Origin: a candidate division WOR-3 bacterium
GTDB lineage: Bacteria > Hydrothermota > Tepidihabitantia > Tepidihabitantales > CAIPLT01
Assembly (NCBI GenBank): GCA_039801485.1
Contig: JBDRUR010000002.1
Coordinates: 1-52,634 of the forward strand
Direction of reading: 5' to 3'
DNA: 52,634 nt
The notes under the pieces are model-generated. The model searched no databases, was not told the DNA's origin, and saw only the letters and a list, made by a program, of their open reading frames with translations. Shown here in pieces: positions 13,234 through 52,634 of this stretch (within the stretch, counting starts at the first letter, position 1; each line of letters starts with the position of its first letter). The position numbers and the translations under genes are program-made.

Positions 13234-14220
13234 TTACCATTTTAAAATTGACGCTGCCCAGGTAAATCCAGCGCCAAAGGCAGCGAATAATATCTTATAA
13301 CCATCTTTAATTCGTCCTTCCTGATATGCTTCATAAAGTGCCACGGGGATTGTTGCCGCTGACATATTACCATATTTATGGATGACCATATAAGTCTTTT
13401 CCCAAGGAATTTTTGCGCGCTTAATCGTTGCATCAATAATCCGAATATTTGCCTGATGGGGTATAAAAATATCAATATCGTCAGCGGATAAATTAGCGCT
13501 TTTTAAGGCGGTTAAAGTTGCATTTTCCATCTCGCGGACTGCATTCTTAAACACTTCGTTGCCAGCCATATGGACATAGTGAAGATTGTTTTTAACTGTT
13601 TCAAACGATGAGGGCATTCGTGTGCCACCAGCGGGTTGATATAAAAGTTCGGCTAAATTTCCGTCGGCACCCCAATTAGAAGTGAGAATGCCTCGGTCTT
13701 CATTGGTTGGCACAACAATACAAGCGCCAGCGCCATCGCCAAACAAAACGCAAGTTGCCCGGTCTTTCCAGTTAACAATCTTTGACATCACTTCGGCACC
13801 GCTAACCAAGACTTTTTTGGCAACACCGCTACAGATTAAACTAACGGCAATTTCCAAGGCAAATAAAAAACCACAACAACCGGCACTGACATCAAAGGCA
13901 ACCGAACCGGAAATGCCTAAGCCTTTTTGTACCCAGCAGGCAGTGGCTGGATAAATGGTATCTGGCGTTGAAGTGCCGACAATAATTGTATCTAATTCAC
14001 TTGCTTTCAGATTTGCTTGTTTCAGTGCTTCTTTACTTGCCGAGACGACCAAATCCGAAGTTGCGGTTTTCTCATCGGCAATTCGTCGTTCTTTAATGCC
14101 GGTTCGTTCAGTAATCCATTCATCAGTAGTGTCAACCATCTTTTCTAAATCAAAATTGGTTAAAACCCGCTCAGGCAAAGAAATGCCCATACCAACGATT
14201 TTTACTTTTCGCATAAACAA
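13234..14220 (-). CDS. fabH: 3-oxoacyl-ACP synthase III
   Basis: Active-site region AGCCGF, then HQAN and a GAGFTW C-terminus. The start could be the ATG at 14220 or at 14214. Confidence 0.9.
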   Translation of the reverse strand: MFMRKVKIVGMGISLPERVLTNFDLEKMVDTTDEWITERTGIKERRIADEKTATSDLVVSASKEALKQANLKASELDTIIVGTSTPDTIYPATACWVQKGLGISGSVAFDVSAGCCGFLFALEIAVSLICSGVAKKVLVSGAEVMSKIVNWKDRATCVLFGDGAGACIVVPTNEDRGILTSNWGADGNLAELLYQPAGGTRMPSSFETVKNNLHYVHMAGNEVFKNAVREMENATLTALKSANLSADDIDIFIPHQANIRIIDATIKRAKIPWEKTYMVIHKYGNMSAATIPVALYEAYQEGRIKDGYKILFAAFGAGFTWAASILKW

Positions 14221-14229
14221 TATGTTATA

Positions 14230-14258
14230 ACTATAATCGACAAATAATGCTTCGTCAA
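14230..14258 (-). promoter_or_regulatory. Sigma70-type promoter of the fabH-por operon
   Basis: On the minus strand: TTGACG (14253-14258), 17 nt, TATAGT (14230-14235). Confidence 0.5.
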
Positions 14259-14704
14259 GACTTTAAACAACGAGGATAGTGTATAATATTTAATTATCGG
14301 GTTTTTGCAAAATAACAATGTTTATTTTTCTAACTCTGTTCCTGAACTTGAACCTTTATCATTTTCTTAACACGCTTCTGAACTCAATTCTGAAGATGAT
14401 GCTCTTTTCCATACTGAACTTGTTTCTAACTTCGTACCTCACGCCGGATCCGGCGTATATTCAGGGTATTTGACTCTCTGCGATTTATCATCACACTCTG
14501 ACATTTAATCTTTTTTTGATGCTCAGAAATTTTCTGAGCCCTAGCCTTACTCCCTGAGTGCATTCGGGGGATGTCCCGGGCTTGCCTTTTTTAGTTTAAC
14601 AGTAAAGGGAAATTATATTTTAATCGTATATAATATATAGACGGATTTTTTTATTAAAAGGTTTCACTAAACTTATTCAAAAAAGTCTTTTGTTTTCTAA
14701 TTAA

Positions 14705-14737
14705 TAAAAAAGGGGAAGCAATGTTTTAGCTTCCCCT
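14705..14737 (-). terminator. Rho-independent terminator of the PKD-repeat lipoprotein gene
   Basis: On the minus strand: GGGGAAGC stem, 9-nt loop, GCTTCCCC, then TTTTTT. Begins 19 nt after the stop codon. Confidence 0.75.
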
Positions 14738-14755
14738 GATATTTACGATTTTGGC

Positions 14756-15868: not shown

Positions 15869-15937
15869 ATAACTCCTTTCTATTTTTATTTTAATTAGCT
15901 AAATAAATATTAAGATATAATTTAGCTATTATTATAA

Positions 15938-15966
15938 ATCTTAAGGCAAAAACAGGATAATGTCAA
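15938..15966 (-). promoter_or_regulatory. Sigma70-type promoter of the lipoprotein gene
   Basis: On the minus strand: TTGACA (15961-15966), 17 nt, TAAGAT (15938-15943). The leader ends with an AAGGAG SD. Confidence 0.45.
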
Positions 15967-16022
15967 CTTATAATATTACGAATAACATCCTTATTGCTTC
16001 ATTAAAATTTATGTACGAAATC

Positions 16023-16051
16023 TTGACAGCCAACTAAATTATCCTTATGAT
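16023..16051 (+). promoter_or_regulatory. Sigma70-type promoter of the trpB2 operon
   Basis: TTGACA (16023-16028), 17 nt, TATGAT (16046-16051). Confidence 0.5.
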
Positions 16052-16078
16052 AGCATTAATTAATTTTTGGGGGATGAA

Positions 16079-17380: not shown

Positions 17381-17890
17381 ATGGTAAATTTATCCTTTAA
17401 GCAAACTGGAGTTCTAACCGAAAATGACTTAAAAAAATCAAAACTGCTACCATCAAAAGCCAGATTTAATAAAGGGCCGGTGGTAGTTGTTGAATGCATT
17501 GAGAAAATCCCCTGTAATCCTTGTGCCGATGCTTGTCCCAAAAATGCCATTACCATTGAAAATAGTATCATTGAAATTCCCAAGGTGAATTTTGATGTCT
17601 GTAATGGTTGCGGTCTTTGTATCGCTCGTTGTCCAGGACTGGCGATCTTTGTTATTAATAAAAACTACAACCCAAAAGAAGCGGCAATTTCTTTGCCTTA
17701 TGAATTTTTACCTCGGCCACAAATAGGCGAGATTGTTTTAGCATTAGACCGTAAAGGCAAATATATCTGTAATGCCCGCGTCGAAAAAGTCCTAGACACA
17801 AAAGCGACTGACCGCTGTGCGGTTATCACAATTGCGGTGCCGAAAAAATATTACAATAAAGTTAGATTTATTAAATTAAAATCAGAGTGA
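17381..17890 (+). CDS. 4Fe-4S dicluster domain protein
   Basis: Cys motifs CNPCADACP and CNGCGLCIARCP. Only a 3-nt gap after trpB2. Confidence 0.7.
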   Translation: MVNLSFKQTGVLTENDLKKSKLLPSKARFNKGPVVVVECIEKIPCNPCADACPKNAITIENSIIEIPKVNFDVCNGCGLCIARCPGLAIFVINKNYNPKEAAISLPYEFLPRPQIGEIVLALDRKGKYICNARVEKVLDTKATDRCAVITIAVPKKYYNKVRFIKLKSE

Positions 17891-17897
17891 GGGAAAT

Positions 17898-20132
17898 GTG
17901 TTATCAATTATCACGGCTATTTTCGTAACAATCACCACGCCCCAATTACCGTTGTCATCAGCCACTACTGACGATGCTTTGGCAATACTGGGCAATCCAG
18001 CTGGGTTAGGCATCGGACGAACATTTAATTGCTACTATCTATATAATTTCAGTAATTACGATGACTTAAATCAAAGACAACGCTTTTGGGATAATCAGAC
18101 TTTTCTTTTCCAGATAAACACCTTAGGCTTTGCCTATGTCGATTTAAAAGATTATCGTATTGGTTGGGGGAGCAAAATCAGCGACGCTTTTGCCTTTGGC
18201 ATTACTTATCGGAAACTAAATGAAAAACACTACTGGGATGCGGGTTTGTTGAGTCGGCCATTAAACTATTTATCATTGGGCGCGATGTTGAGTAATATTG
18301 GCCAAGCAACACCTCGGCAACTGCTATTTGGTATTGGCGTTAGGCCATTAACCAATCGGCTAACATTAACCTTTGATGTGTTCAGTGATAATTGGCGGTA
18401 TCCAACTTTTGGTGTGGAGTTGGAGCCAATTAATGGTGTTGAAATCCGAGGTAAATTTAGTCGCAATCAAATTTTTTCAATCCAAGCCGGTGTTAATTTA
18501 CATAAAGTTGGTATTGGTGCTGTTCATAACTCGTCATTTAATACGGGTAGCAGTTATCACCATTGGGCAGGTTATTTGCGGTTTGACATCGAACGCCGAC
18601 GCTCGCTTATTGCCGAAACTAAAAAATTTCTGGAAATGAGACTTAGTGGTATAATTGCTGACCAAAAGCCCGGTTTTAGTATTTTTGGTAGTAATGTTAA
18701 CTATACTACTTACGAAATCCTTAATACTTTTAAAAAAGCCAAAGAAGACAGCCAAATCACCGGGATTGTTCTGAAACTCGAAAATGTCCGAATGAACTTT
18801 GCTATTGCCCAAGAAATAAAATCAGCACTTAATGAATGCAAAAAAAACAAAAAGAAAATCATTGTTTACTCACCTTACTTTGATAATTTAACTTATTATC
18901 TTGCCAGTGGTGCTGATCAAATCATATCTCATCCTCTAGGTGAAGTTGATATTCCGGGTCTCGTTGCCAAATCGATGTTTATTAAGGACGCCTTGGACAA
19001 AATAGGAATTGAAGTAGAATACGAACGCGTCGGCAAATACAAATCTGCGCCTGAAATGTTAACTGAGGATACATTATCATTAGCAAATCGTGAGGTGATT
19101 AATGCCATCTTAGATGATTTGTATCAACAATTAACCAAAACCATTAGTCAAGAGCGAAATTTTTCTGAACAAGAAATTACCGATAAAATCAACCGAGGCT
19201 TCTTCTTAGCCAAAAATGCGAAACAAGAAAGGTTGATTGACAATCTCTGCTACGAAGACGAACTTGACAGCCTTTGTAAAAATATCTTTGCCCACTCGAA
19301 GCCGATACCAATGAAAAAATACCTTCGCCAGCTTAGCCATCAGTATGACTGGCAAGCGCCACCAAAGATTGTAATAATTTATGCTAATGGTGATATTGCG
19401 ATTGGCGAAAGTTCCACCGACCCATTAACCGGTAATATTACTTGCGGTGCCAACACAATTGTTTGTGCCATTCGTCAAGCACGAAAAGATAAAAAGGTTA
19501 AGGCAATTGTCCTGCGTGTCAACTCCCCAGGTGGTGACGGTTTTGCGTCAGATTTAATTTGGCGTGAAATCCAAATCACTAAAAAGACCAAACCAGTAAT
19601 TGTTTCTATGGGACCGCTAGCGGCATCAGGTGGTTATTATATTGCAATGAATGGTGATAAGATTTTTGCCTTACCCGCAACCATTACTGGTTCAATCGGT
19701 GTCTTTGGTTTGAAATATGTAACTAAAGAGTTATACCACAAACTCGGGATTAATATTGAGACGATAAAACGCGGTGAACATGCCGATGCCTTTTCGCCTG
19801 ATCGGAAATTTAGTCCGGATGAAAAAATGATACTAAAAAAGCAAGTTGAAGACTTTTATGCCCAATTTATTGAAAAAGTTGCCCAAGCTCGAAACTTGAG
19901 CGTTGATTATGTTGATTCTGTTGGCCAAGGGCGTATCTGGACTGGCAATCAAGCCAAAGAACGATTCTTAATTGATTCATTAGGCGGATTGCTTAACGCT
20001 GTTGAATTCGCCAAAGAAAAAACTAAAGTCAAAGAAGTAAAAATTGACTTTTTACCAAGACCGAAACGGGATTTTTTTAATTTAGCGTTAAAGATGATTG
20101 TGCCAATATTAAAATATAAATTCTATGAATAG
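17898..20132 (+). CDS. sppA: Signal peptide peptidase SppA (67K type, two S49/ClpP-like domains) with a ~240-aa N-terminal beta-barrel-like extension
   Basis: The C-terminal ~500 aa show duplicated S49 domains (GVFGLKY..., PLAASGGYYIA). The N-terminal region has alternating beta-strand character and an ILGNPAGLG motif. GTG start with a GAGGGA SD. Confidence 0.75.
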   Translation: MLSIITAIFVTITTPQLPLSSATTDDALAILGNPAGLGIGRTFNCYYLYNFSNYDDLNQRQRFWDNQTFLFQINTLGFAYVDLKDYRIGWGSKISDAFAFGITYRKLNEKHYWDAGLLSRPLNYLSLGAMLSNIGQATPRQLLFGIGVRPLTNRLTLTFDVFSDNWRYPTFGVELEPINGVEIRGKFSRNQIFSIQAGVNLHKVGIGAVHNSSFNTGSSYHHWAGYLRFDIERRRSLIAETKKFLEMRLSGIIADQKPGFSIFGSNVNYTTYEILNTFKKAKEDSQITGIVLKLENVRMNFAIAQEIKSALNECKKNKKKIIVYSPYFDNLTYYLASGADQIISHPLGEVDIPGLVAKSMFIKDALDKIGIEVEYERVGKYKSAPEMLTEDTLSLANREVINAILDDLYQQLTKTISQERNFSEQEITDKINRGFFLAKNAKQERLIDNLCYEDELDSLCKNIFAHSKPIPMKKYLRQLSHQYDWQAPPKIVIIYANGDIAIGESSTDPLTGNITCGANTIVCAIRQARKDKKVKAIVLRVNSPGGDGFASDLIWREIQITKKTKPVIVSMGPLAASGGYYIAMNGDKIFALPATITGSIGVFGLKYVTKELYHKLGINIETIKRGEHADAFSPDRKFSPDEKMILKKQVEDFYAQFIEKVAQARNLSVDYVDSVGQGRIWTGNQAKERFLIDSLGGLLNAVEFAKEKTKVKEVKIDFLPRPKRDFFNLALKMIVPILKYKFYE

Positions 20133-20406
20133 ACCAACAGTCATCTGTCGTTGCGAAGAAATAACCGACAAAGAAATCATTAAAGCAATTAAACAAGGCT
20201 ATACTAGTTTAGATGAACTTAAACGAGTATTACGCTGTGGTATGGGGCATTGTCAAGGCAGAAGCTGTCTTTTACTGATTGCACGGATTTTAAGCCAAAT
20301 GACCAAACAACCAATTGAAAAGATTTCACTACCGACTTCCCGACCGCCATTAAAACCGATACCAATTGGAACCTTAGCCAAATATCAACATGAAAAAGAC
20401 CGCTGA
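20125..20406 (+). CDS. BFD-like [2Fe-2S]-binding protein
   Basis: Pattern CRCEEIT...CGMGHCQGRSC. Overlaps both neighbouring genes. Confidence 0.75.
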   Translation: MNRPTVICRCEEITDKEIIKAIKQGYTSLDELKRVLRCGMGHCQGRSCLLLIARILSQMTKQPIEKISLPTSRPPLKPIPIGTLAKYQHEKDR

Positions 20407-21523
20407 TGTTATTATCATTGGTGCCGGTATCATCGGTGCCGCAACTGGCTATTATTTGGCAAAGAAAAAATTAAAGGTTTTGGTATTAGAAAAAAGATTT
20501 CCGTGCTATGGTTCCACTGGTCGCTGTATCGGCGGAATTCGACAACAATATGCCCACCCATTATCAATCCAGGTAATGATTGAAAGCGTTAAAATCTTTT
20601 CGACTTTATCTGAAGAACTTAACCGAGACATCGAATGGTATCAAGGTGGTTATCTATTTCTCGCCCATTCTGAAGAGAAAAAACAAACTTATCTTTCAGC
20701 GATCGAATTACAGAAAAAGTATGGATTACCGGTTAAATTCATCAGCGCTGATGACTGTGCCCAAATTGTCAAAGGGTTAAATATTGATGGTCTTTTCGGT
20801 GGGGCTTATTGTCCAACTGATGGCCAAGCCAATCCATTTGCGGTTACTTATGGTTATTTACAGGGCATAAAAAAATATCAAGGTAAGATTTTAACTAATT
20901 CTGAGGTTATTAAAATAACAACCAATGGTGACAAAGTTATCTCAGTAATGACCCAATCTGGGGATGAATTTTTTGCTCCAATTATTGTTAATGCCGCTGG
21001 ACCTTGGGCAAAACGTATTGCTCAAATGGTCGGACTTGATGTGCCAATTGAACCTGAACGGCATGAAAGCCTAGTGACCGAAGCGGTAGAACGACTATTT
21101 GATCCAATGTTGGTTGATTATCGGCCAGACGGCTGTTATTTTATTCAAAACTACGGCACGGGGCATTTTATCGGTTGTTATACGCCAATACCAAATGACC
21201 CAGGCTATCATATCAATGCTTCAAGCGAATTTCTCACTGAAATGCCAAGAAGAATGGCAAGACTGGTTCCGAAATTAAAAGACATAAAGGTCATTCGCCA
21301 ATGGGCTGGTAGTTATGAGATGACCCCGGATGGTAATCCAATTGTTGATAAAACACCGATTGACGGCTTTTATATTTCAGCTGGTATGTGTGGTCATGGG
21401 TTTATGTTCGGACCGGCACTCGGCAAATTTATGTCCGAAATTATTACAACTGGTAAAAGTTCGTTGCCGTTAACCGACTTTGCGCTTAATCGCTCCTTTG
21501 TTAAATCCGAACTGATGAAGTAA
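20390..21523 (+). CDS. FAD-dependent oxidoreductase (DAO / sarcosine-oxidase-beta-like)
   Basis: N-terminal DVIIIGAGIIGAATGYYLA FAD fold and DAO-family length (377 aa). Confidence 0.85.
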   Translation: MKKTADVIIIGAGIIGAATGYYLAKKKLKVLVLEKRFPCYGSTGRCIGGIRQQYAHPLSIQVMIESVKIFSTLSEELNRDIEWYQGGYLFLAHSEEKKQTYLSAIELQKKYGLPVKFISADDCAQIVKGLNIDGLFGGAYCPTDGQANPFAVTYGYLQGIKKYQGKILTNSEVIKITTNGDKVISVMTQSGDEFFAPIIVNAAGPWAKRIAQMVGLDVPIEPERHESLVTEAVERLFDPMLVDYRPDGCYFIQNYGTGHFIGCYTPIPNDPGYHINASSEFLTEMPRRMARLVPKLKDIKVIRQWAGSYEMTPDGNPIVDKTPIDGFYISAGMCGHGFMFGPALGKFMSEIITTGKSSLPLTDFALNRSFVKSELMK

Positions 21524-23237: not shown

Positions 23238-23266
23238 ATTTTACAACATAAAAATAACAATGTCAA
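23238..23266 (-). promoter_or_regulatory. Sigma70-type promoter of the OMP gene
   Basis: On the minus strand: TTGACA (23261-23266), 17 nt, TAAAAT (23238-23243). About 67-nt leader. Confidence 0.5.
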
Positions 23267-23299
23267 TATCATTAATTTATGTTCAAGAGATTACTATTC

Positions 23300-23760
23300 A
23301 GTTTATGGTATTTAATTAATTATGCTGGATATGGATAATGGATATGTGAAACAAGTTTTTAAGCTGGCAAATTAATTCTAATTTTCAAAAAGTCTATTTA
23401 TATATAGACTAAATTTAAAGCGGAATTTTTATCTAAGTTATTGATAACCAAAGGACTGTCACAAAAACGGCTCGACCATACTGTATAGTATAGGGGGCGG
23501 TCTTAGAGATTTTGTTTTTCGTAGTAAATTAGCGGAATTTGGTCTGGAAATTGCTTATTTATTTGGGTTGATATTTAATTCTATAATATAATTAATATAA
23601 TATTAGTTGTTATGTTTACTAACTGATAATTTTTTCGGGAAGTAGTTAAGTGTTTAATAACTAAACTATCCTGTGCGCTACTTTGATTAACAGATTGAAT
23701 TTAAGTTAGGAATTCACTGCAAATCGTTAAAATTAGTCTATTATTACCATGTGGGGTCTT
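23300..23760. repeat. Conserved noncoding element, copy A (paralogue of 52000-52500, inverted)
   Basis: Hand alignment to the reverse complement of copy B. There are perfect 30-nt and 29-nt islands plus many 8-16-nt shared blocks. No shared ORF. Confidence 0.8.
23469..23498. repeat. Invariant 30-nt dyad core of element A
   Basis: GGCTCGACCATACTGTATAGTATAGGGGGC is identical to the reverse complement of 52307-52336. Confidence 0.9.
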
Positions 23761-23765
23761 ATGAG

Positions 23766-23796
23766 GATAAAGATAAGATAAGATAAGATAAGAATT
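23766..23796. repeat. Pentanucleotide microsatellite (GATAA)n
   Basis: Sequence is GATAA-a-GATAA-GATAA-GATAA-GATAA-GAATT. Confidence 0.9.
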
Positions 23797-23875
23797 GAGA
23801 TTCTGTGCCGAAAACGGAATGACAAAAATGACAGCGTAATAGTTGGATTCGATAAAATAAGTATAGAATTATTAA

Positions 23876-23904
23876 TTCAATATCTTGGCAACATCATTTA
23901 TAAT
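23876..23904 (+). promoter_or_regulatory. Candidate sigma70-type promoter upstream of tal
   Basis: TTCAAT (23876-23881), 17 nt, TATAAT (23899-23904). Confidence 0.4.
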
Positions 23905-23919
23905 ATGCTATTTTTTCTC

Positions 23920-42038: not shown

Positions 42039-42049
42039 ACTATAACTAT

Positions 42050-42078
42050 ATTCTACTTCAGTAATAAATTAAAGTCAA
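42050..42078 (-). promoter_or_regulatory. Sigma70-type promoter of hslU-argF, near-leaderless
   Basis: On the minus strand: TTGACT (42073-42078), 17 nt, TAGAAT (42050-42055), then 11 nt to the ATG. No SD. Confidence 0.5.
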
Positions 42079-42612
42079 GGCAAATCGTCGGCAGTTGGGC
42101 ATGATTTTGAAATTGAATATATAGTTGATTTGGCAAGGAATCAATATAAGGCTAATAATTAAAATTTTCTAAGATAAATTTAGCAGGACATTGAAAGTTT
42201 TCCACCTTAAACAAAATTATATTGGCGATATAACTGTAAAGCACATTCATTTTTGATGTATTAGATTGATTTTCATAGATATTAGGATAAAATTTATTAA
42301 ACCAAGGGTACAGTCCCCGCCACGGCTTAAATTTGCTCAATTTGGTTCACACAAAAGTGCTGTATTTGAGTTTATTAACTTGTGTTTTATTATTTCTAAA
42401 TTGACGGATATTTCGGTGAATCATTGTCTGCATATTTAAAAGACAAGATTGAATTGGAGCATCAGGTGACTAAAGAAAATGCTAGCGAGATTAATCTTTA
42501 AGCTAGAAATGTCATTGATATCAAAGTTAGATAAGCAATCACGCTATTCAATTCAAAAAGCTATTTTGTAAAAGTTAATAAATGAGCAATTGTTCGTACC
42601 ATCGTAATCTGC

Positions 42613-42641
42613 TTGACTAAATTTTTTTATTAAATTATACT
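42613..42641 (+). promoter_or_regulatory. Sigma70-type promoter of nfo, leaderless
   Basis: TTGACT (42613-42618), 17 nt, TATACT (42636-42641), then 7 nt to the ATG at 42649. Confidence 0.55.
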
Positions 42642-42648
42642 TTTGGTA

Positions 42649-50129: not shown

Positions 50130-50357
50130 TTAATCAACCGGGTCATAGCCACCATGATTTAATGGATTACATCGTAATATTCGTTTGATAGTAAGCACGC
50201 TACCTTTGATTAGTCCATATTTTAATAACGCTTGTTTGGCATACTCCGAACAGGTCGGATAAAAACGGCACGTTTTTGGTAGTATCGGACTTAAAATTAG
50301 TTGATAGCTACTTATCAACGCAATCGGTATTTTTATTAGAAGCGATGTGCTTTTCAT
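50130..50357 (-). CDS. yidD: Membrane protein insertion efficiency factor YidD
   Basis: [11 protein letters not shown] motif, 75 aa. Confidence 0.9.
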
Positions 50358-50755
50358 ACTATGTTTCGGACTAACGACAATATTTCGTTTTTTAATTGGT
50401 GAAAATCAATATTAATGATATTAGGTCGAGGACGGATTACATAGGCGTATTTTTCTGAAAAATATTCTTTATTGGTGCGATAGATTTCTTTAAGATATCG
50501 TTTTATTCGGTTACGAACAACAGCTTTGTCAAAGGTGTTTTTCGCAATGTAAACGCCAAATTTTCGGCAGTTACTATTGGCATAAAACAAACTAAAATAT
50601 GGGTTTAATATCACTTTTCCTGATAAAAATACTGATTGATATTCGTTTTCCTTTCTAATCAGTTCGGATTTAGCTAACCGACAATCTTTTATCATTTTCT
50701 TAATATAGTTAATTAAAGCAAATTGGGGATGAGTACGCTCATCCGTAAGTATCAT
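50354..50755 (-). CDS. rnpA: RNase P protein component
   Basis: RNR-type motif ([13 protein letters not shown]) and a position between rpmH and yidD. The true start may be an internal Met (MIKDCRL). Confidence 0.85.
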
Positions 50756-50769
50756 CTCAAGTCTAAAGA

Positions 50770-50907
50770 TTATACGGTTAAAACCTTTCGGCCTTTTTTA
50801 CGCCTTCTTTTTAAGACTTTTCGGCCCCAATGGGTTTTCATTCGAGCACGAAAGCCGTGAGTTCTTTTTCGTTTAATTACCGATGGTTGATATGTTCTTT
50901 TCGGCAT
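50770..50907 (-). CDS. rpmH: 50S ribosomal protein L34 (not in the ORF track)
   Basis: My own translation of the minus strand gives [45 protein letters not shown] (45 aa). Confidence 0.95.
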
Positions 50908-50912
50908 AGGTT

Positions 50913-50940
50913 ATCATAATGGAATTAACCGAAAAGTCAA
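50913..50940 (-). promoter_or_regulatory. Sigma70-type promoter of rpmH-rnpA, leaderless
   Basis: On the minus strand: TTGACT (50935-50940), 16 nt, TATGAT (50913-50918), then 5 nt to the ATG. Confidence 0.5.
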
Positions 50941-51057
50941 GAGTTAAGTGGTCGTTCTAAAAATTTGTTACTGAAATTACGTATAGAGAAAAAGAAAAAA
51001 TTTAGTGTTTTCAACGCTTTTGTTGGGAGAAATTTGGCTTCACAAATGTTATGCTAT

Positions 51058-51954
51058 TTATTGTTCTTCAGCGCGAGGATGGGCTTTTTGATAGATCTTT
51101 TTTAAGTGTTCAATTGAAATGTGGGTGTAAATTTGAGTTGCTGATAACGAACTATGTCCTAAAAGCTCTTGAACCGCTCTTAAATCAGCACCACGTTCTA
51201 AAAGATGGGTAGCAAAAGAATGGCGCAGAGTATGAGGATTAGTATGGCTGACTTCAGAAACACGAGAAATGAGCTGATTAACGATTTTCTGAACCGAACG
51301 GGTACTGAGCCGTCTGCCTTGTTTGTTTAATAATAATGCAGGATTTGTTTTGTTTTTACGGACCGCTAAATATTCTTTTATTGCCTGCTGAGCATAACTA
51401 CCCAAAGGTACAATTCGTTGTTTGTTTGCTTTGCCTTTGACTAATATTACTTCATTGTAAAAATCGATATCAGCGATATTTAAATTTACTAGTTCGCTGG
51501 CACGAAGACCAGCACCGTATAATACTTCGATGATTGCTTTGTTTCTAAGGGTTATTTCATCGTTGCCCTGAAATGATAATACTTTTTGTATCTGATACTG
51601 GGTAAGAAATCCGGGTAAAGTTTTGGTGATTTTCGGTGTTTTTATTGCCTTGGCGGGATTGGTTGCTAAGATCTTCTTACGCGTCAAGTATTTAAAAAAT
51701 GATTTTAAACTACTTAATTTACGGGCAACCGAGCGTTTATCATAACCATATTTCAAAAGATAACCAACAAAATCCCTAATGTCATCGCGCTTTACTGTTA
51801 AAATATCTTGATGATTTTTACGGTCAATCAGAAATTCTAAAAATTGACCAAGGTCAATCTGGTAAGCCCTAATGGTATGTTGGGAAAAGTTCTTTTCAGA
51901 ACTGAGATAATCTAAAAATTTATGTACTCGTTCATCTGATGGGTAGATTGGCAT
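51058..51954 (-). CDS. xerC: Tyrosine recombinase XerC/XerD family
   Basis: Catalytic pattern LRASE...HTLRHSFATHLL...GHSSLSATQIYTH. I start the gene at the ATG at 51954 (MPIYPSDERVHKFLDYL) because the track TTG start at 51990 is the -35 hexamer. Confidence 0.9.
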   Translation of the reverse strand: MPIYPSDERVHKFLDYLSSEKNFSQHTIRAYQIDLGQFLEFLIDRKNHQDILTVKRDDIRDFVGYLLKYGYDKRSVARKLSSLKSFFKYLTRKKILATNPAKAIKTPKITKTLPGFLTQYQIQKVLSFQGNDEITLRNKAIIEVLYGAGLRASELVNLNIADIDFYNEVILVKGKANKQRIVPLGSYAQQAIKEYLAVRKNKTNPALLLNKQGRRLSTRSVQKIVNQLISRVSEVSHTNPHTLRHSFATHLLERGADLRAVQELLGHSSLSATQIYTHISIEHLKKIYQKAHPRAEEQ

Positions 51955-51961
51955 ATAGTTC

Positions 51962-51990
51962 ATCATATCAATTATAATTAAAGCTGTCAA
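51962..51990 (-). promoter_or_regulatory. Sigma70-type promoter of xerC, leaderless
   Basis: On the minus strand: TTGACA (51985-51990), 17 nt, TATGAT (51962-51967), then 7 nt to the ATG at 51954. Confidence 0.5.
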
Positions 51991-51999
51991 GGATTCAAG

Positions 52000-52500
52000 T
52001 TGGTTCGGTAGCGGATAATATTCTGTGTAAAATTAGACCTTTTAGTTTAGTGTAAGATGACAATTAACCATTTTTTAACGATCGGTACTGAATTCCTAAC
52101 TTAATGCCAAGCTCATAATAAAAGTTATGCCCAGATTGGTTTAGTTACAAAGCACTTAACCGCCTTCCGAGCAAATTGTCGTTCTGCTGCCATAGCCGCT
52201 AATAATATTTCAACCAATTTAGGCAATTGAACATCAACGCAAATAAATCGATAATTACCATAAAAATTTCAGCTAATTTATCGGGTAAAACAAAATCCCT
52301 AAGTCAGCCCCCTATACTATACAGTATGGTCGAGCCATTTTTATGATAACTTCTTGGTTATCAAGTAAGTTAGATAAAAATTCTGCGTAAAATTTAGTCT
52401 ATATATAAATAGACTTTTGTAAATGAATAAATATTAACTTTTTTAGTGCCAAAAAACCTGTTTGACATACCGAGCACAAGAGAATCTCATAAATTAAATA
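52000..52500. repeat. Conserved noncoding element, copy B (paralogue of 23300-23760, inverted)
   Basis: See copy A. It fills most of the 575-nt gap between xerC and ntpD. Confidence 0.8.
52307..52336. repeat. Invariant 30-nt dyad core of element B
   Basis: GCCCCCTATACTATACAGTATGGTCGAGCC is the reverse complement of 23469-23498. Confidence 0.9.
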
Positions 52501-52529: not shown

Positions 52530-52557
52530 TTGACTTAAATTATATTTTAATTAAAAT
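52530..52557 (+). promoter_or_regulatory. Sigma70-type promoter of ntpD, leaderless
   Basis: TTGACT (52530-52535), 16 nt, TAAAAT (52552-52557), then 7 nt to the ATG at 52565. Confidence 0.5.
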
Positions 52558-52564
52558 GGTTTTT

Positions 52565-52634
52565 ATGCGAATAAGCGTTAGTGCCACCCGAATGGAACTT
52601 TTACGCTTGCGACGGCGATTAATTGTCGCACAGC
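52565..52634 (+). CDS. ntpD: V-type ATP synthase subunit D, 5' fragment (runs off the window)
   Basis: MRISVSATRMELLRLRRRLIVAQ matches the conserved NtpD/AtpD N-terminus (xxPTRMELLxLKxRL). Only 23 codons are visible. Confidence 0.65.
   Translation, partial: MRISVSATRMELLRLRRRLIVAQ

What the first reader, a model, noticed from the sequence alone, without database searches (positions are those of the whole stretch)
52000..52500. Copy B of the conserved noncoding element, wedged between the xerC and ntpD promoters
Copy B occupies almost the whole 575-nt gap between the leaderless xerC promoter (51962-51990, minus) and the leaderless ntpD promoter (52530-52557, plus). Read 5' to 3' in the orientation of copy A (+), copy B runs toward xerC, just as copy A runs toward tal. 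Read in the opposite orientation, copy A runs toward the OMP gene promoter and copy B toward the ntpD promoter. Weak homology continues up to those promoters (TATGTGAAACAAGTTTTT vs TATGTCAAACAGGTTTTTT; TATTTAATTAATTATG vs TATTTAATTTATGAG). Both copies are therefore complete inter-promoter modules between divergent transcription units whose flanking genes are unrelated. This suggests a portable regulatory or structural DNA/RNA module rather than gene-specific leader sequence.
Basis: partly seen in the sequence, partly recalled or inferred. Interest (0 to 1): 0.65.

Follow-up and report, generated by a model that had tools for sequence, protein, structure and literature searches.

The report
High-copy intergenic repeat of a WOR-3 bacterium
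The 410-base "copy B" is real, but it is one of tens of diverged copies of a non-coding dispersed repeat scattered through the genome of an uncultured hot-spring WOR-3 bacterium, most likely a non-autonomous mobile element rather than a dedicated regulatory module.

Summary
Observation confirmed. Copy B (52062-52471, minus) matches copy A (23341-23745, plus) at 74.5% over 404 columns. Two perfect blocks of 29 and 30 nt exceed what uniform divergence allows. No Rfam match and no conserved ORF.

New finding: public hot-spring metagenomes that hold this genome carry the ~140-nt core at 50-75 times the flanking depth. It sits on 40-50 distinct contigs per run, each near single-copy depth, with differing flanks. 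That implies tens of copies per genome, with internal-deletion variants.

At locus A, a co-existing strain replaces 662 nt, including the whole element, with 41 nt. A diverged homologue lies upstream of xerC in another WOR-3 species, in the opposite orientation.

Exact core words are absent from 185,579 species genomes, JGI metagenomes and viral contigs.

Best reading: a new lineage-specific MITE-like repeat family. Its core holds a 7-6-7 palindrome, further palindromes, and a 15-nt inverted repeat to the right terminus. Target-site duplications, a sharp left end and an autonomous partner were not found, so MITE membership is unproven.

RNA structure is not supported: fold z-scores are unremarkable, and a structure model scores the distant homologue lower than sequence alone. 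No usable transcriptome exists.

The parts
52062..52471 (-). Copy B of the repeat (whole A-B homologous stretch). The family boundary toward xerC is sharp at 52070-52073.
52285..52424 (-). High-copy conserved core of copy B (block 2, H2 palindrome, block 1).
   Evidence: Summed contig depth is 800-1630 against a baseline of 15-26 in runs X1 and X3.
52390..52418 (.). Block 1, identical to copy A over 29 nt. It contains the palindrome AGTCTAT-N6-ATAGACT (52396-52415), the most conserved part of the family.
52345..52362 (.). H2 palindrome GATAAC-N6-GTTATC. Family consensus is GATA(A/G)C CTTTTG GTTATC, followed by TATCAA-N4/5-TTA, which resembles the IHF consensus (weak lead only).
   Evidence: Loose ends; variants (10 matches in the window versus 7.6 expected).
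52307..52336 (.). Block 2, identical to copy A over 30 nt (GGCTCGACCATACTGTATAGTATAGGGGGC on the minus strand). It contains the palindrome ATACT-GTAT-AGTAT.
52130..52171 (-). H4 hairpin (GGTTAAGT...ACTAAACC with an outer stem). Two pairs change on both sides between A and B, and the hairpin is kept in L011.
52070..52105 (-). Block 3, the conserved right-end segment (TTAAGTTAGGAATTCA...CGTTAAAA), at about 10 times baseline depth. In B the terminal TTAGTCTAT motif is degenerate.
23341..23745 (+). Copy A of the repeat.
23388..23416 (.). Block 1 in copy A (palindrome at 23391-23410).
23469..23498 (.). Block 2 in copy A.
23727..23741 (.). Right-terminal inverted repeat TTAAAATTAGTCTAT, complementary at 14 of 15 positions to ATAGACTAAATTTAA at 23404-23418. 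The same motif ends the orthologue of B in L011 and several other copies.
   Evidence: (3 of 200 shuffles reach 14/15); loose ends.
23255..23916 (.). Segment containing all of copy A that a co-existing strain replaces with 41 nt (...TAGCACGATTTTATAATAGATTAATTTCCC).
51962..51990 (-). xerC promoter-like site. This is flanking context, not part of the repeat.
52530..52557 (+). ntpD promoter-like site. This is flanking context, not part of the repeat.

Best explanation
Copy B and copy A are two members of a lineage-specific, non-coding, dispersed repeat family of about 330-450 nt. The family is present in tens of diverged copies (roughly 30-70) in the genome of an uncultured hot-spring bacterium of candidate division WOR-3. 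It most likely spreads, or once spread, as a non-autonomous mobile element mobilised in trans by a transposase or recombinase encoded elsewhere. The conserved ~140-nt core (block 1 palindrome AGTCTAT-N6-ATAGACT, palindrome GATAAC-N6-GTTATC, block 2) and the right-terminal TTAGTCTAT motif would be the cis-acting protein-binding sites. The variable middle, which carries 100-180-nt deletions in some copies, would be dispensable. Both window copies lie in AT-rich spacers between divergent promoters, where an insertion breaks nothing. Shown: the repeat, its copy number, differing flanks, lack of coding capacity, population indel, lineage restriction, and a homologue in a second species. Inferred: transposition in trans, the role of the palindromes, and neutrality of the insertion sites.
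For: 1. Depth: summed depth over the core is 575-840 versus 25 at 85% likeness in run X1. It is 1000-1340 versus 17-24 at 80%, and up to 1630 in X1 and about 1200 in X3 at fine scale.
2. Same genome: 40-49 distinct contigs per block per run. Contig depths cluster at each run's own genome baseline (about 24 in X1, 16 in X3, 11 in X2), so the copies sit in the same genome.
3. Control: a 20-kb stretch shows comparable peaks only at copy A, at a tRNA gene, and in one other bin.
4. Flanks: loose ends beyond both boundaries differ between copies.
5. Deletion variants: joints skip 92-182 nt inside the element.
6. Non-coding: no conserved ORF, and a pseudo-protein search was empty.
7. Inverted repeat: 15 nt, 14 of 15 complementary, between block 1 and the right terminus of A. 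Only 3 of 200 shuffles reach this. It recurs in L011 and in other copies.
8. Population indel: an allele lacks 662 nt including copy A. In X3 it has depth 9.9 against 7.0 for the filled allele and 15.6 downstream.
9. Distribution: the closest strain or species (XerC 93%) keeps copy B with a fast-diverging middle. Relatives at 74-79% lack it near xerC. One relative has a homologous core in the opposite orientation (sequence-only model 32.4 bits, E = 1e-8).
10. General fit: AT-rich, intergenic, hairpin-bearing, tens of copies. This matches prokaryotic MITEs as reviewed in PMC10969869.
Against: No target-site duplication is visible at A or B. The left inverted-repeat arm lies at least 60 nt inside the A-B homologous region, and many other copies share still more sequence to its left, so the left end is undefined. 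The core is far better conserved than the rest: about 90% versus about 62-65% in 40-column windows, with two perfect runs that never arose in 20,000 simulations. That could reflect host-level selection rather than transposition constraints. The population allele without copy A is not a precise empty site, since it also lacks about 85 nt to the left and 175 nt to the right of the element and carries 41 unrelated nt. No transposase lies in the window or could be linked to the family. Individual copies outside the window could not be retrieved, so copy number rests on assembler depth.
Confidence: 0.55

Rival explanations
1. A host-maintained architectural or regulatory DNA repeat, working like REP/BIME, ERIC or CIR elements. 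The palindromes and the IHF-consensus-like site would bind a nucleoid-associated protein or a global regulator. The repeat would be kept in promoter-proximal spacers because it insulates or tunes divergent promoters.
For: Conservation is mosaic: blocks are 100% identical between copies that are otherwise about 65% alike. The block 1 palindrome is nearly invariant across about 50 copies. Both window copies lie between divergent promoters. TATCAATAAGTTA fits WATCAANNNNTTR in the family consensus.
Against: Two of two copies in divergent spacers is not significant: the window has four such spacers, and 42039-42642 and 15869-16066 lack the element. The IHF pattern is as frequent as chance in the window (10 found versus 7.6 expected) and is not kept in the L009 homologue. 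A strain without the element at locus A co-exists with the filled strain. There are no binding or expression data.
Confidence: 0.2
2. A multi-copy gene family for a structured non-coding RNA of about 300-400 nt, or a cis-acting RNA element transcribed from within the repeat.
For: RNAalifold on A versus B gives -42.6 kcal/mol on the copy-A strand (82 pairs, 7 with changes on both sides) against -24.6 kcal/mol on the other strand. Hairpin H4 keeps pairing through two double changes, and also in L011. A weak promoter-like site TTTACA-16-TAGACT sits in block 1 just before the predicted P1 helix.
Against: There is no Rfam match even at E <= 10. Single-sequence fold z-scores range from -0.3 to -1.5. 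A covariance model with the proposed structure scores the independent L009 homologue lower (27.8 bits, many non-canonical pairs) than a sequence-only model does (32.4 bits). Common family variants give G-U pairs on opposite strands in different hairpins. The two runs labelled metatranscriptomic have flat, DNA-like depth, so there is no transcript evidence. RNAalifold avoids broken pairs by construction, and only two sequences were available.
Confidence: 0.1
3. A module moved by site-specific recombination, working like Xer-dependent pdif modules or IMEX elements. Block 1 (about 10-nt arms around a 6-nt spacer) would be a tyrosine-recombinase core site, the right-end TTAGTCTAT a half site, and the adjacent sequence would hold accessory sites.
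For: Block 1 has an arm-6-arm architecture, and a third copy of the arm motif sits at the right terminus. Family members lie directly upstream of xerC in two WOR-3 species with different neighbours and in opposite orientation.
Against: By my own recollection of dif consensus sequences, block 1 does not resemble them. Tens of active recombination sites per chromosome would be hazardous. The xerC association comes from a search centred on xerC, and copy A is not near xerC. Contigs show no strand-switch joints. Nothing was tested biochemically.
Confidence: 0.1
4. A chance resemblance, or a one-off local duplication of an intergenic region.
For: Only two copies are in the window.
Against: E = 1.5e-74. 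There are tens of further copies in the source community.
Confidence: 0.01

Closest known systems
Prokaryotic MITEs (for example Correia/NEMIS elements of Neisseria, ERIC, Coxiella QMITE1/2, Sulfolobus SM1-SM4)
   Same: Non-coding, AT-rich, intergenic, tens of copies per genome, internal-deletion variants, hairpin-forming palindromes, a terminal-type inverted repeat, and strain-level presence/absence. Possibly an IHF-type site, as in Correia elements (PMC10969869; PMC2229807).
   Different: At about 400 nt it is at the large end of the range. No target-site duplication was found. The left inverted-repeat arm is internal and forms one half of a perfect palindrome. The most conserved part is a 140-nt subterminal core rather than both termini. 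No parent IS is known.
BOX elements of Streptococcus pneumoniae, and BIMEs of enterobacteria (modular or mosaic intergenic repeats)
   Same: Modular build with conserved blocks separated by variable or missing segments. High copy number, intergenic location, no ORF.
   Different: No sequence relation. The modules here are not tandemly reiterated. The palindromes are AT-rich rather than GC-rich as in REP.
Xer-dependent pdif modules and IMEX elements
   Same: An inverted pair of roughly 10-nt arms around a 6-nt spacer, plus a further arm copy at the other end. Proximity to xerC in two species.
   Different: No similarity to known dif sites (from recollection). Chromosomal and in tens of copies. 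Recombination was not tested.
IS200/IS605-derived palindrome-associated elements (PATEs) and TnpB/IscB guide-RNA remnants
   Same: No clear TIR or TSD. A subterminal hairpin at one end. A strand-asymmetric pattern of G-T pairs.
   Different: No matching hairpin at the other end. No Rfam hit to HEARO or IS605-associated RNA motifs. No TnpA or TnpB gene nearby.

Membership tests
MITE (non-autonomous transposable element) | Short (about 50-600 bp) and without coding capacity | tested here: met
   The element is 405-410 nt. No ORF is conserved between A and B, and stops interrupt every frame.
MITE (non-autonomous transposable element) | Many dispersed copies in one genome with unrelated flanks | tested here: met
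   The core is at 50-75 times baseline depth, on 40-49 contigs per run, each near 1x genome depth in three runs. Loose ends are diverse. This is indirect, because it rests on assembler depth and not on a closed genome.
MITE (non-autonomous transposable element) | Terminal inverted repeats | tested here: inconclusive
   A 15-nt inverted repeat (14 of 15) links 23404-23418 and 23727-23741, reached by 3 of 200 shuffles. It recurs in L011 and other copies. However, the left arm is internal to the homologous region, and the repeat is degenerate in copy B.
MITE (non-autonomous transposable element) | Target-site duplications flanking the element | tested here: not met
   Inspection of both copies at the inferred ends shows no direct repeat. 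Old copies can lose them (PMC10969869).
MITE (non-autonomous transposable element) | An autonomous IS with the same termini in the genome or lineage | not testable with these tools
   The rest of the genome could not be retrieved. There is no transposase in the window. The collection scans were exhausted.
MITE (non-autonomous transposable element) | Insertion polymorphism (filled and empty sites) | tested here: inconclusive
   An allele lacking 23255-23916 co-exists with the filled allele in X1 and X3. It is not a precise empty site, since 41 unrelated nt lie between the breakpoints.
Any Rfam RNA family (including HEARO, group II intron domains, ribozymes, 6S, OLE) | Covariance-model match at or near the gathering score | tested here: not met
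   Only two tRNAs reach the gathering score in the window. Nothing credible appears at E <= 10 in either copy.
Structured non-coding RNA (new family) | Conserved secondary structure supported by covariation, and a transcript | tested here: inconclusive
   Seven double changes in 82 predicted pairs, from two sequences. The structure model scores the L009 homologue below the sequence-only model (27.8 versus 32.4 bits). Fold z-scores are no lower than -1.5. There are no usable RNA data.
REP/BIME | 20-40-bp GC-rich imperfect palindromes, often in clusters at the 3' ends of genes | tested here: not met
   The unit is about 400 nt at roughly 30% GC. It lies between divergent 5' ends.
IS200/IS605-type PATE | Related subterminal hairpins at both ends; no TIR or TSD | tested here: not met
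   The left hairpin (block 1) is present. No related conserved hairpin occurs at the right end in A, B or L011.
Xer/dif-type recombination site (IMEX or pdif module) | Two inverted recombinase-binding arms around a 6-8-bp spacer, recombined by XerC/D | tested here: inconclusive
   The architecture is present (AAAAGTCTAT-TTATAT-ATAGACTAAA). Resemblance to known dif sequences is poor by recollection. Recombination cannot be tested here.

The most novel reading that the evidence does not exclude
The ~140-nt core is not merely a transposon end. It would be a host-retained functional module of this WOR-3 lineage: either a tyrosine-recombinase (Xer-type) site with accessory sequences that makes intergenic segments portable, or a new multi-copy structured RNA or DNA-binding platform. 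Its strong mosaic conservation across about 50 copies, and its presence upstream of xerC in two species, would then reflect function rather than selfish spread.
Probability: 0.15. Interest if true: 0.65.

Novelty: new member of a known kind. Interest (0 to 1): 0.35.

Why it matters
WOR-3 is an uncultured phylum-level lineage whose mobile elements and regulatory DNA are essentially undescribed. Tens of copies of about 400 nt add up to a noticeable share of a small genome. The family also breaks short-read assemblies: Logan contigs and sister MAG contigs end inside the element, which matters for MAG quality. It may also serve as a strain marker, given the filled and empty alleles at locus A. If the conserved core proves to be a protein-binding or recombination site, it would be an entry point to the genome dynamics of an organism nobody can grow. 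As it stands, the finding is a useful annotation rather than a surprise.

Tried and rejected
1. Exact scans with the most conserved 20-24-mers found nothing real. Species genomes gave 0 hits twice. JGI metagenome contigs gave 0 hits, then 3 chance hits L002-L004 with no surrounding similarity. Viral contigs gave 0 hits twice.
2. A chimeric pseudo-protein made from the open frames across the core, meant to fish out gene calls on other copies, found nothing.
3. A profile of two T9SS C-terminal domains, meant to reach paralogues elsewhere in the same genome, found nothing and used the last protein search.
4. Known RNA families were rejected.
5. A small protein or type I toxin was rejected. The only shared peptide-like stretches (KSL..PPILYSMVEPFL and AVKC.VTK) are interrupted by stops in one or more copies.
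6. Transcript evidence was not obtainable. X8 does not contain the organism, and X6 and X9 have flat, DNA-like depth.
8. The idea of terminal inverted repeats at the core boundary (CAAAAGTCTA / TAGTCTTTTGG) was dropped, because many copies share further sequence to the left of the core (loose ends).
9. Homology extending to the promoters was rejected for the right side and is marginal for the left.
10. An intrinsic terminator or promoter role for block 1 was considered. Only weak consensus matches exist and the spacing varies between copies.
11. The IHF site is no more frequent than chance.

Full report
**The observation.** The repeat finder pairs 23383-23732 with 52073-52423 as inverted arms. 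MAFFT and blastn extend the match to about 23341-23745 (plus) and 52062-52471 (minus), with E = 1.5e-74. Over 404 ungapped columns the two copies are 74.5% identical, but unevenly so. Two stretches are perfectly identical: AAAAGTCTATTTATATATAGACTAAATTT (29 nt) and GGCTCGACCATACTGTATAGTATAGGGGGC (30 nt). The middle of the element is only about 62-65% identical. In 20,000 simulations with the same number of uniformly placed mismatches, two runs of 29 or more never occurred. The window holds exactly two copies.

**The setting.**
- The best promoter-like sites of the region are TTGACA-17-TATGAT at 51990-51962 (minus) and TTGACT-16-TAAAAT at 52530-52557 (plus). Each ends about 7 nt before an ATG.
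- XerC and transaldolase are confirmed by Pfam.
- The 26-residue NtpD start has V-type ATPase subunit D as its only PDB match, at E = 0.06.
- The 504-aa 'OMP' has no Pfam domain.
- Similarity beyond the element is marginal on the left (z = 1.7) and absent on the right (z = 0.5).

**What it is not.**
- Rfam finds only two tRNAs in the window, and nothing credible in either copy even at E <= 10.
- No reading frame is conserved.
- Single-sequence folds are no more stable than shuffles, with z between -0.3 and -1.5 on both strands of both copies.

**The organism.**
- XerC homologues named by their sources are overwhelmingly 'candidate division WOR-3'.
- The window is an entire 52,634-nt contig of an NCBI WOR-3 MAG.
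- The public runs that hold it are hot-spring metagenomes from two studies.

**The key result: copy number.** I laid the contigs of those runs on the window. The flanking genes sit at 17-26 (X1), 15-18 (X3) and 10-12 (X2). The core of the element reaches much higher values:
- 575-840 in X1 at 85% likeness.
- 1000-1340 in X1 at 80% likeness.
- Up to 1630 (X1) and about 1200 (X3) over block 1, and 1350 and 828 over block 2, at fine resolution.

Forty to forty-nine distinct contigs cover each block in each run. Their individual depths (mostly 16-32 in X1, 8-20 in X3, 4-24 in X2) track the genome's own depth in that run. So the copies belong to the same genome population rather than to unrelated community members.

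A 20-kb control stretch shows comparable peaks only at copy A, at the tRNA-Gly gene (expected, because it is shared by many organisms) and in one further bin. I therefore estimate tens of copies, roughly 30-70 per genome. The caveat is that this rests on assembler word depth.

The family boundary toward xerC is sharp at 52070-52073, and the high-copy core stops at 52419-52424. Flanks beyond these points differ among copies. To the left of the core, however, many copies still share a weaker consensus (AAGC..GCAAAATTAATT..AAACATTT), so the true left end is not defined. Several copies carry internal deletions of 92-182 nt relative to A or B. The right-end block is detectable at about 10 times baseline and the middle at 3-6 times, consistent with faster divergence there.

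**Mobility and age.**
1. At locus A, runs X1 and X3 contain an alternative allele. In it, 23254 is joined through 41 unrelated nucleotides to 23917, removing 662 nt that include the whole element. In X3 the two alleles have depths 9.9 and 7.0, which sum to roughly the downstream depth of 15.6. X2 and the sister MAG contig L015 carry only the filled allele. This is not a precise empty site, but it shows the element is dispensable and polymorphic.
2. The nearest relative (XerC 93% identical, L011) keeps copy B at the same place and in the same orientation. Its middle has diverged strongly, while the H4 hairpin and the right-end block are conserved.
3. Species with 74-79% XerC identity have different neighbours around xerC, and in most there is no element within the 10-20 kb fetched.
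4. One such species (L007-L010) has a homologous core 310 nt upstream of xerC, in the opposite orientation (nhmmer E = 2e-5; sequence-only model 32.4 bits, E = 1e-8).
5. The most conserved 20-24-mers are absent from one genome each of 185,579 species, from JGI metagenome contigs and from IMG/VR.

The family is therefore old within a narrow WOR-3 clade and otherwise unknown.

**Anatomy, read on the copy-A strand.**
- A weakly conserved left arm.
- Block 1, a perfect 7-6-7 palindrome (AGTCTAT TTATAT ATAGACT) flanked by A/T runs.
- A segment whose family consensus contains TATCAATAAGTTA on the other strand. This fits the IHF consensus WATCAANNNNTTR, but the pattern is no more frequent in the window than chance (10 found versus 7.6 expected).
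- Palindrome GATAAC-N6-GTTATC.
- Block 2, with palindrome ATACT-GTAT-AGTAT.
- A variable middle.
- Hairpin H4.
- The right-end block TTAAGTTAGGAATTCA...CGTTAAAA, followed by TTAGTCTAT.

That last motif is an inverted copy (14 of 15) of the right arm of block 1 plus its flank in copy A. Only 3 of 200 shuffles reach this match. The motif recurs in L011 and in several other copies seen as loose ends, and it is degenerate in copy B. I found no target-site duplication.

**RNA or DNA?** RNAalifold prefers the copy-A strand: -42.6 versus -24.6 kcal/mol, with 7 double changes in 82 pairs. H4 shows two compensatory pairs. Several points count against a structured RNA:
- With two sequences, and a method that avoids broken pairs, this evidence is weak.
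- Common family variants create G-U pairs on opposite strands in H2 and H3.
- A covariance model carrying the proposed helices scores the independent L009 homologue lower (27.8 bits, with many non-canonical pairs) than a sequence-only model does (32.4 bits).
- The two runs labelled metatranscriptomic that contain the organism have flat, DNA-like depth across 10 kb, so they say nothing about transcription. The genuine RNA-seq run does not contain the organism.

**Interpretation.** The data fit a non-autonomous mobile repeat (MITE-like) best. Supporting features are the many dispersed non-coding copies with differing flanks, deletion derivatives, a terminal-type inverted repeat, strain-level presence/absence, lineage restriction, and AT-rich intergenic location. 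These are the general properties of prokaryotic MITEs summarised in PMC10969869.

Membership is not proven. TSDs are missing, the left end is undefined, no parent IS is known, and the core is conserved far more than neutral decay of old insertions would predict. That last point keeps three rivals alive:
- A host-selected DNA-binding or architectural repeat.
- A recombinase (Xer-type) module, suggested by the arm-6-arm architecture of block 1 and the xerC neighbourhood in two species.
- An RNA gene family.

I put about 0.9 on 'dispersed multi-copy repeat family' and about 0.55 on 'mobilised in trans as a MITE-like element'.

The idea of a portable module is right. The specific idea of a complete regulatory inter-promoter module is not supported. 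This is a new family of a known kind of element in a poorly known phylum, and of moderate-to-low interest unless the conserved core turns out to have a host function.

Noticed in passing
window 23766-23794: A pentanucleotide tandem repeat (ATAAG/AAGAT, about 5 units) just right of copy A. It varies in unit number between strains: contigs in X1 lack 5 nt and contigs in X3 lack 10 nt. The sister MAG contig L015 ends at this repeat.
   Followed up: partly
window 14000-14666 (intergenic 14221-14742): This bin has about 4-5 times the neighbouring contig depth in X1, X2 and X3. The 520-nt gene-free stretch contains a relatively GC-rich, hairpin-rich segment (14440-14600) ending in a T-run, and a CAAAAAAGTCTTTTG motif (14679-14693) that resembles the repeat's arm motif. 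There is no Rfam hit at E <= 1.
   Followed up: partly
window 52017-52034 versus 52377-52394: A direct repeat (16 of 18): AATATTCTGTGTAAAATT between the end of copy B and the xerC promoter duplicates the segment next to block 1. It may be a remnant of a second, degraded copy.
   Followed up: no
L007:1-100 and L008 versus L009:700-780: In the related WOR-3 species, an IS30-like transposase gene (MNTKYSHLKQEERDQIF...) is inserted about 170 nt from the core-like sequence in two assemblies. It is absent at the same point in a third, so this is an insertion polymorphism unrelated to the repeat.
   Followed up: partly
L007:430-560 / L009:1010-1140: A GC-rich segment with inverted repeats (CCCTCCC...GGGAGAATTC...GGGTGAGGGG) lies between xerC and the core-like sequence in the related species. 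It looks like a different repeat family.
   Followed up: no
window 51954-51990 and 52530-52567: Both divergent genes appear to be leaderless or nearly so. Strong sigma-70-type promoters end about 7 nt before the ATG. The xerC promoter is kept in relatives (TTGACA-N16/17-TATTAT before the ATG in L007).
   Followed up: partly
window 50354-51954 versus L005, L007, L012, L016, L017: Synteny around xerC is rearranged in this species. Here xerC is followed by rpmH-rnpA-yidD-yidC and preceded by the ntp operon. In relatives at 74-79% identity it is followed by a T9SS-tail protein and recO.
   Followed up: no
window 17539-20810: A contig in X1 (depth 30.8) joins 17539 to 20810, skipping 3270 nt. This may be a strain-level deletion or a paralogous junction across the 744-aa gene.
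   Followed up: no
window 42039-42642: A second long (604-nt) spacer between divergent genes. It has no copy of the repeat and no Rfam hit at gathering score. Its content is unexplained.
   Followed up: no
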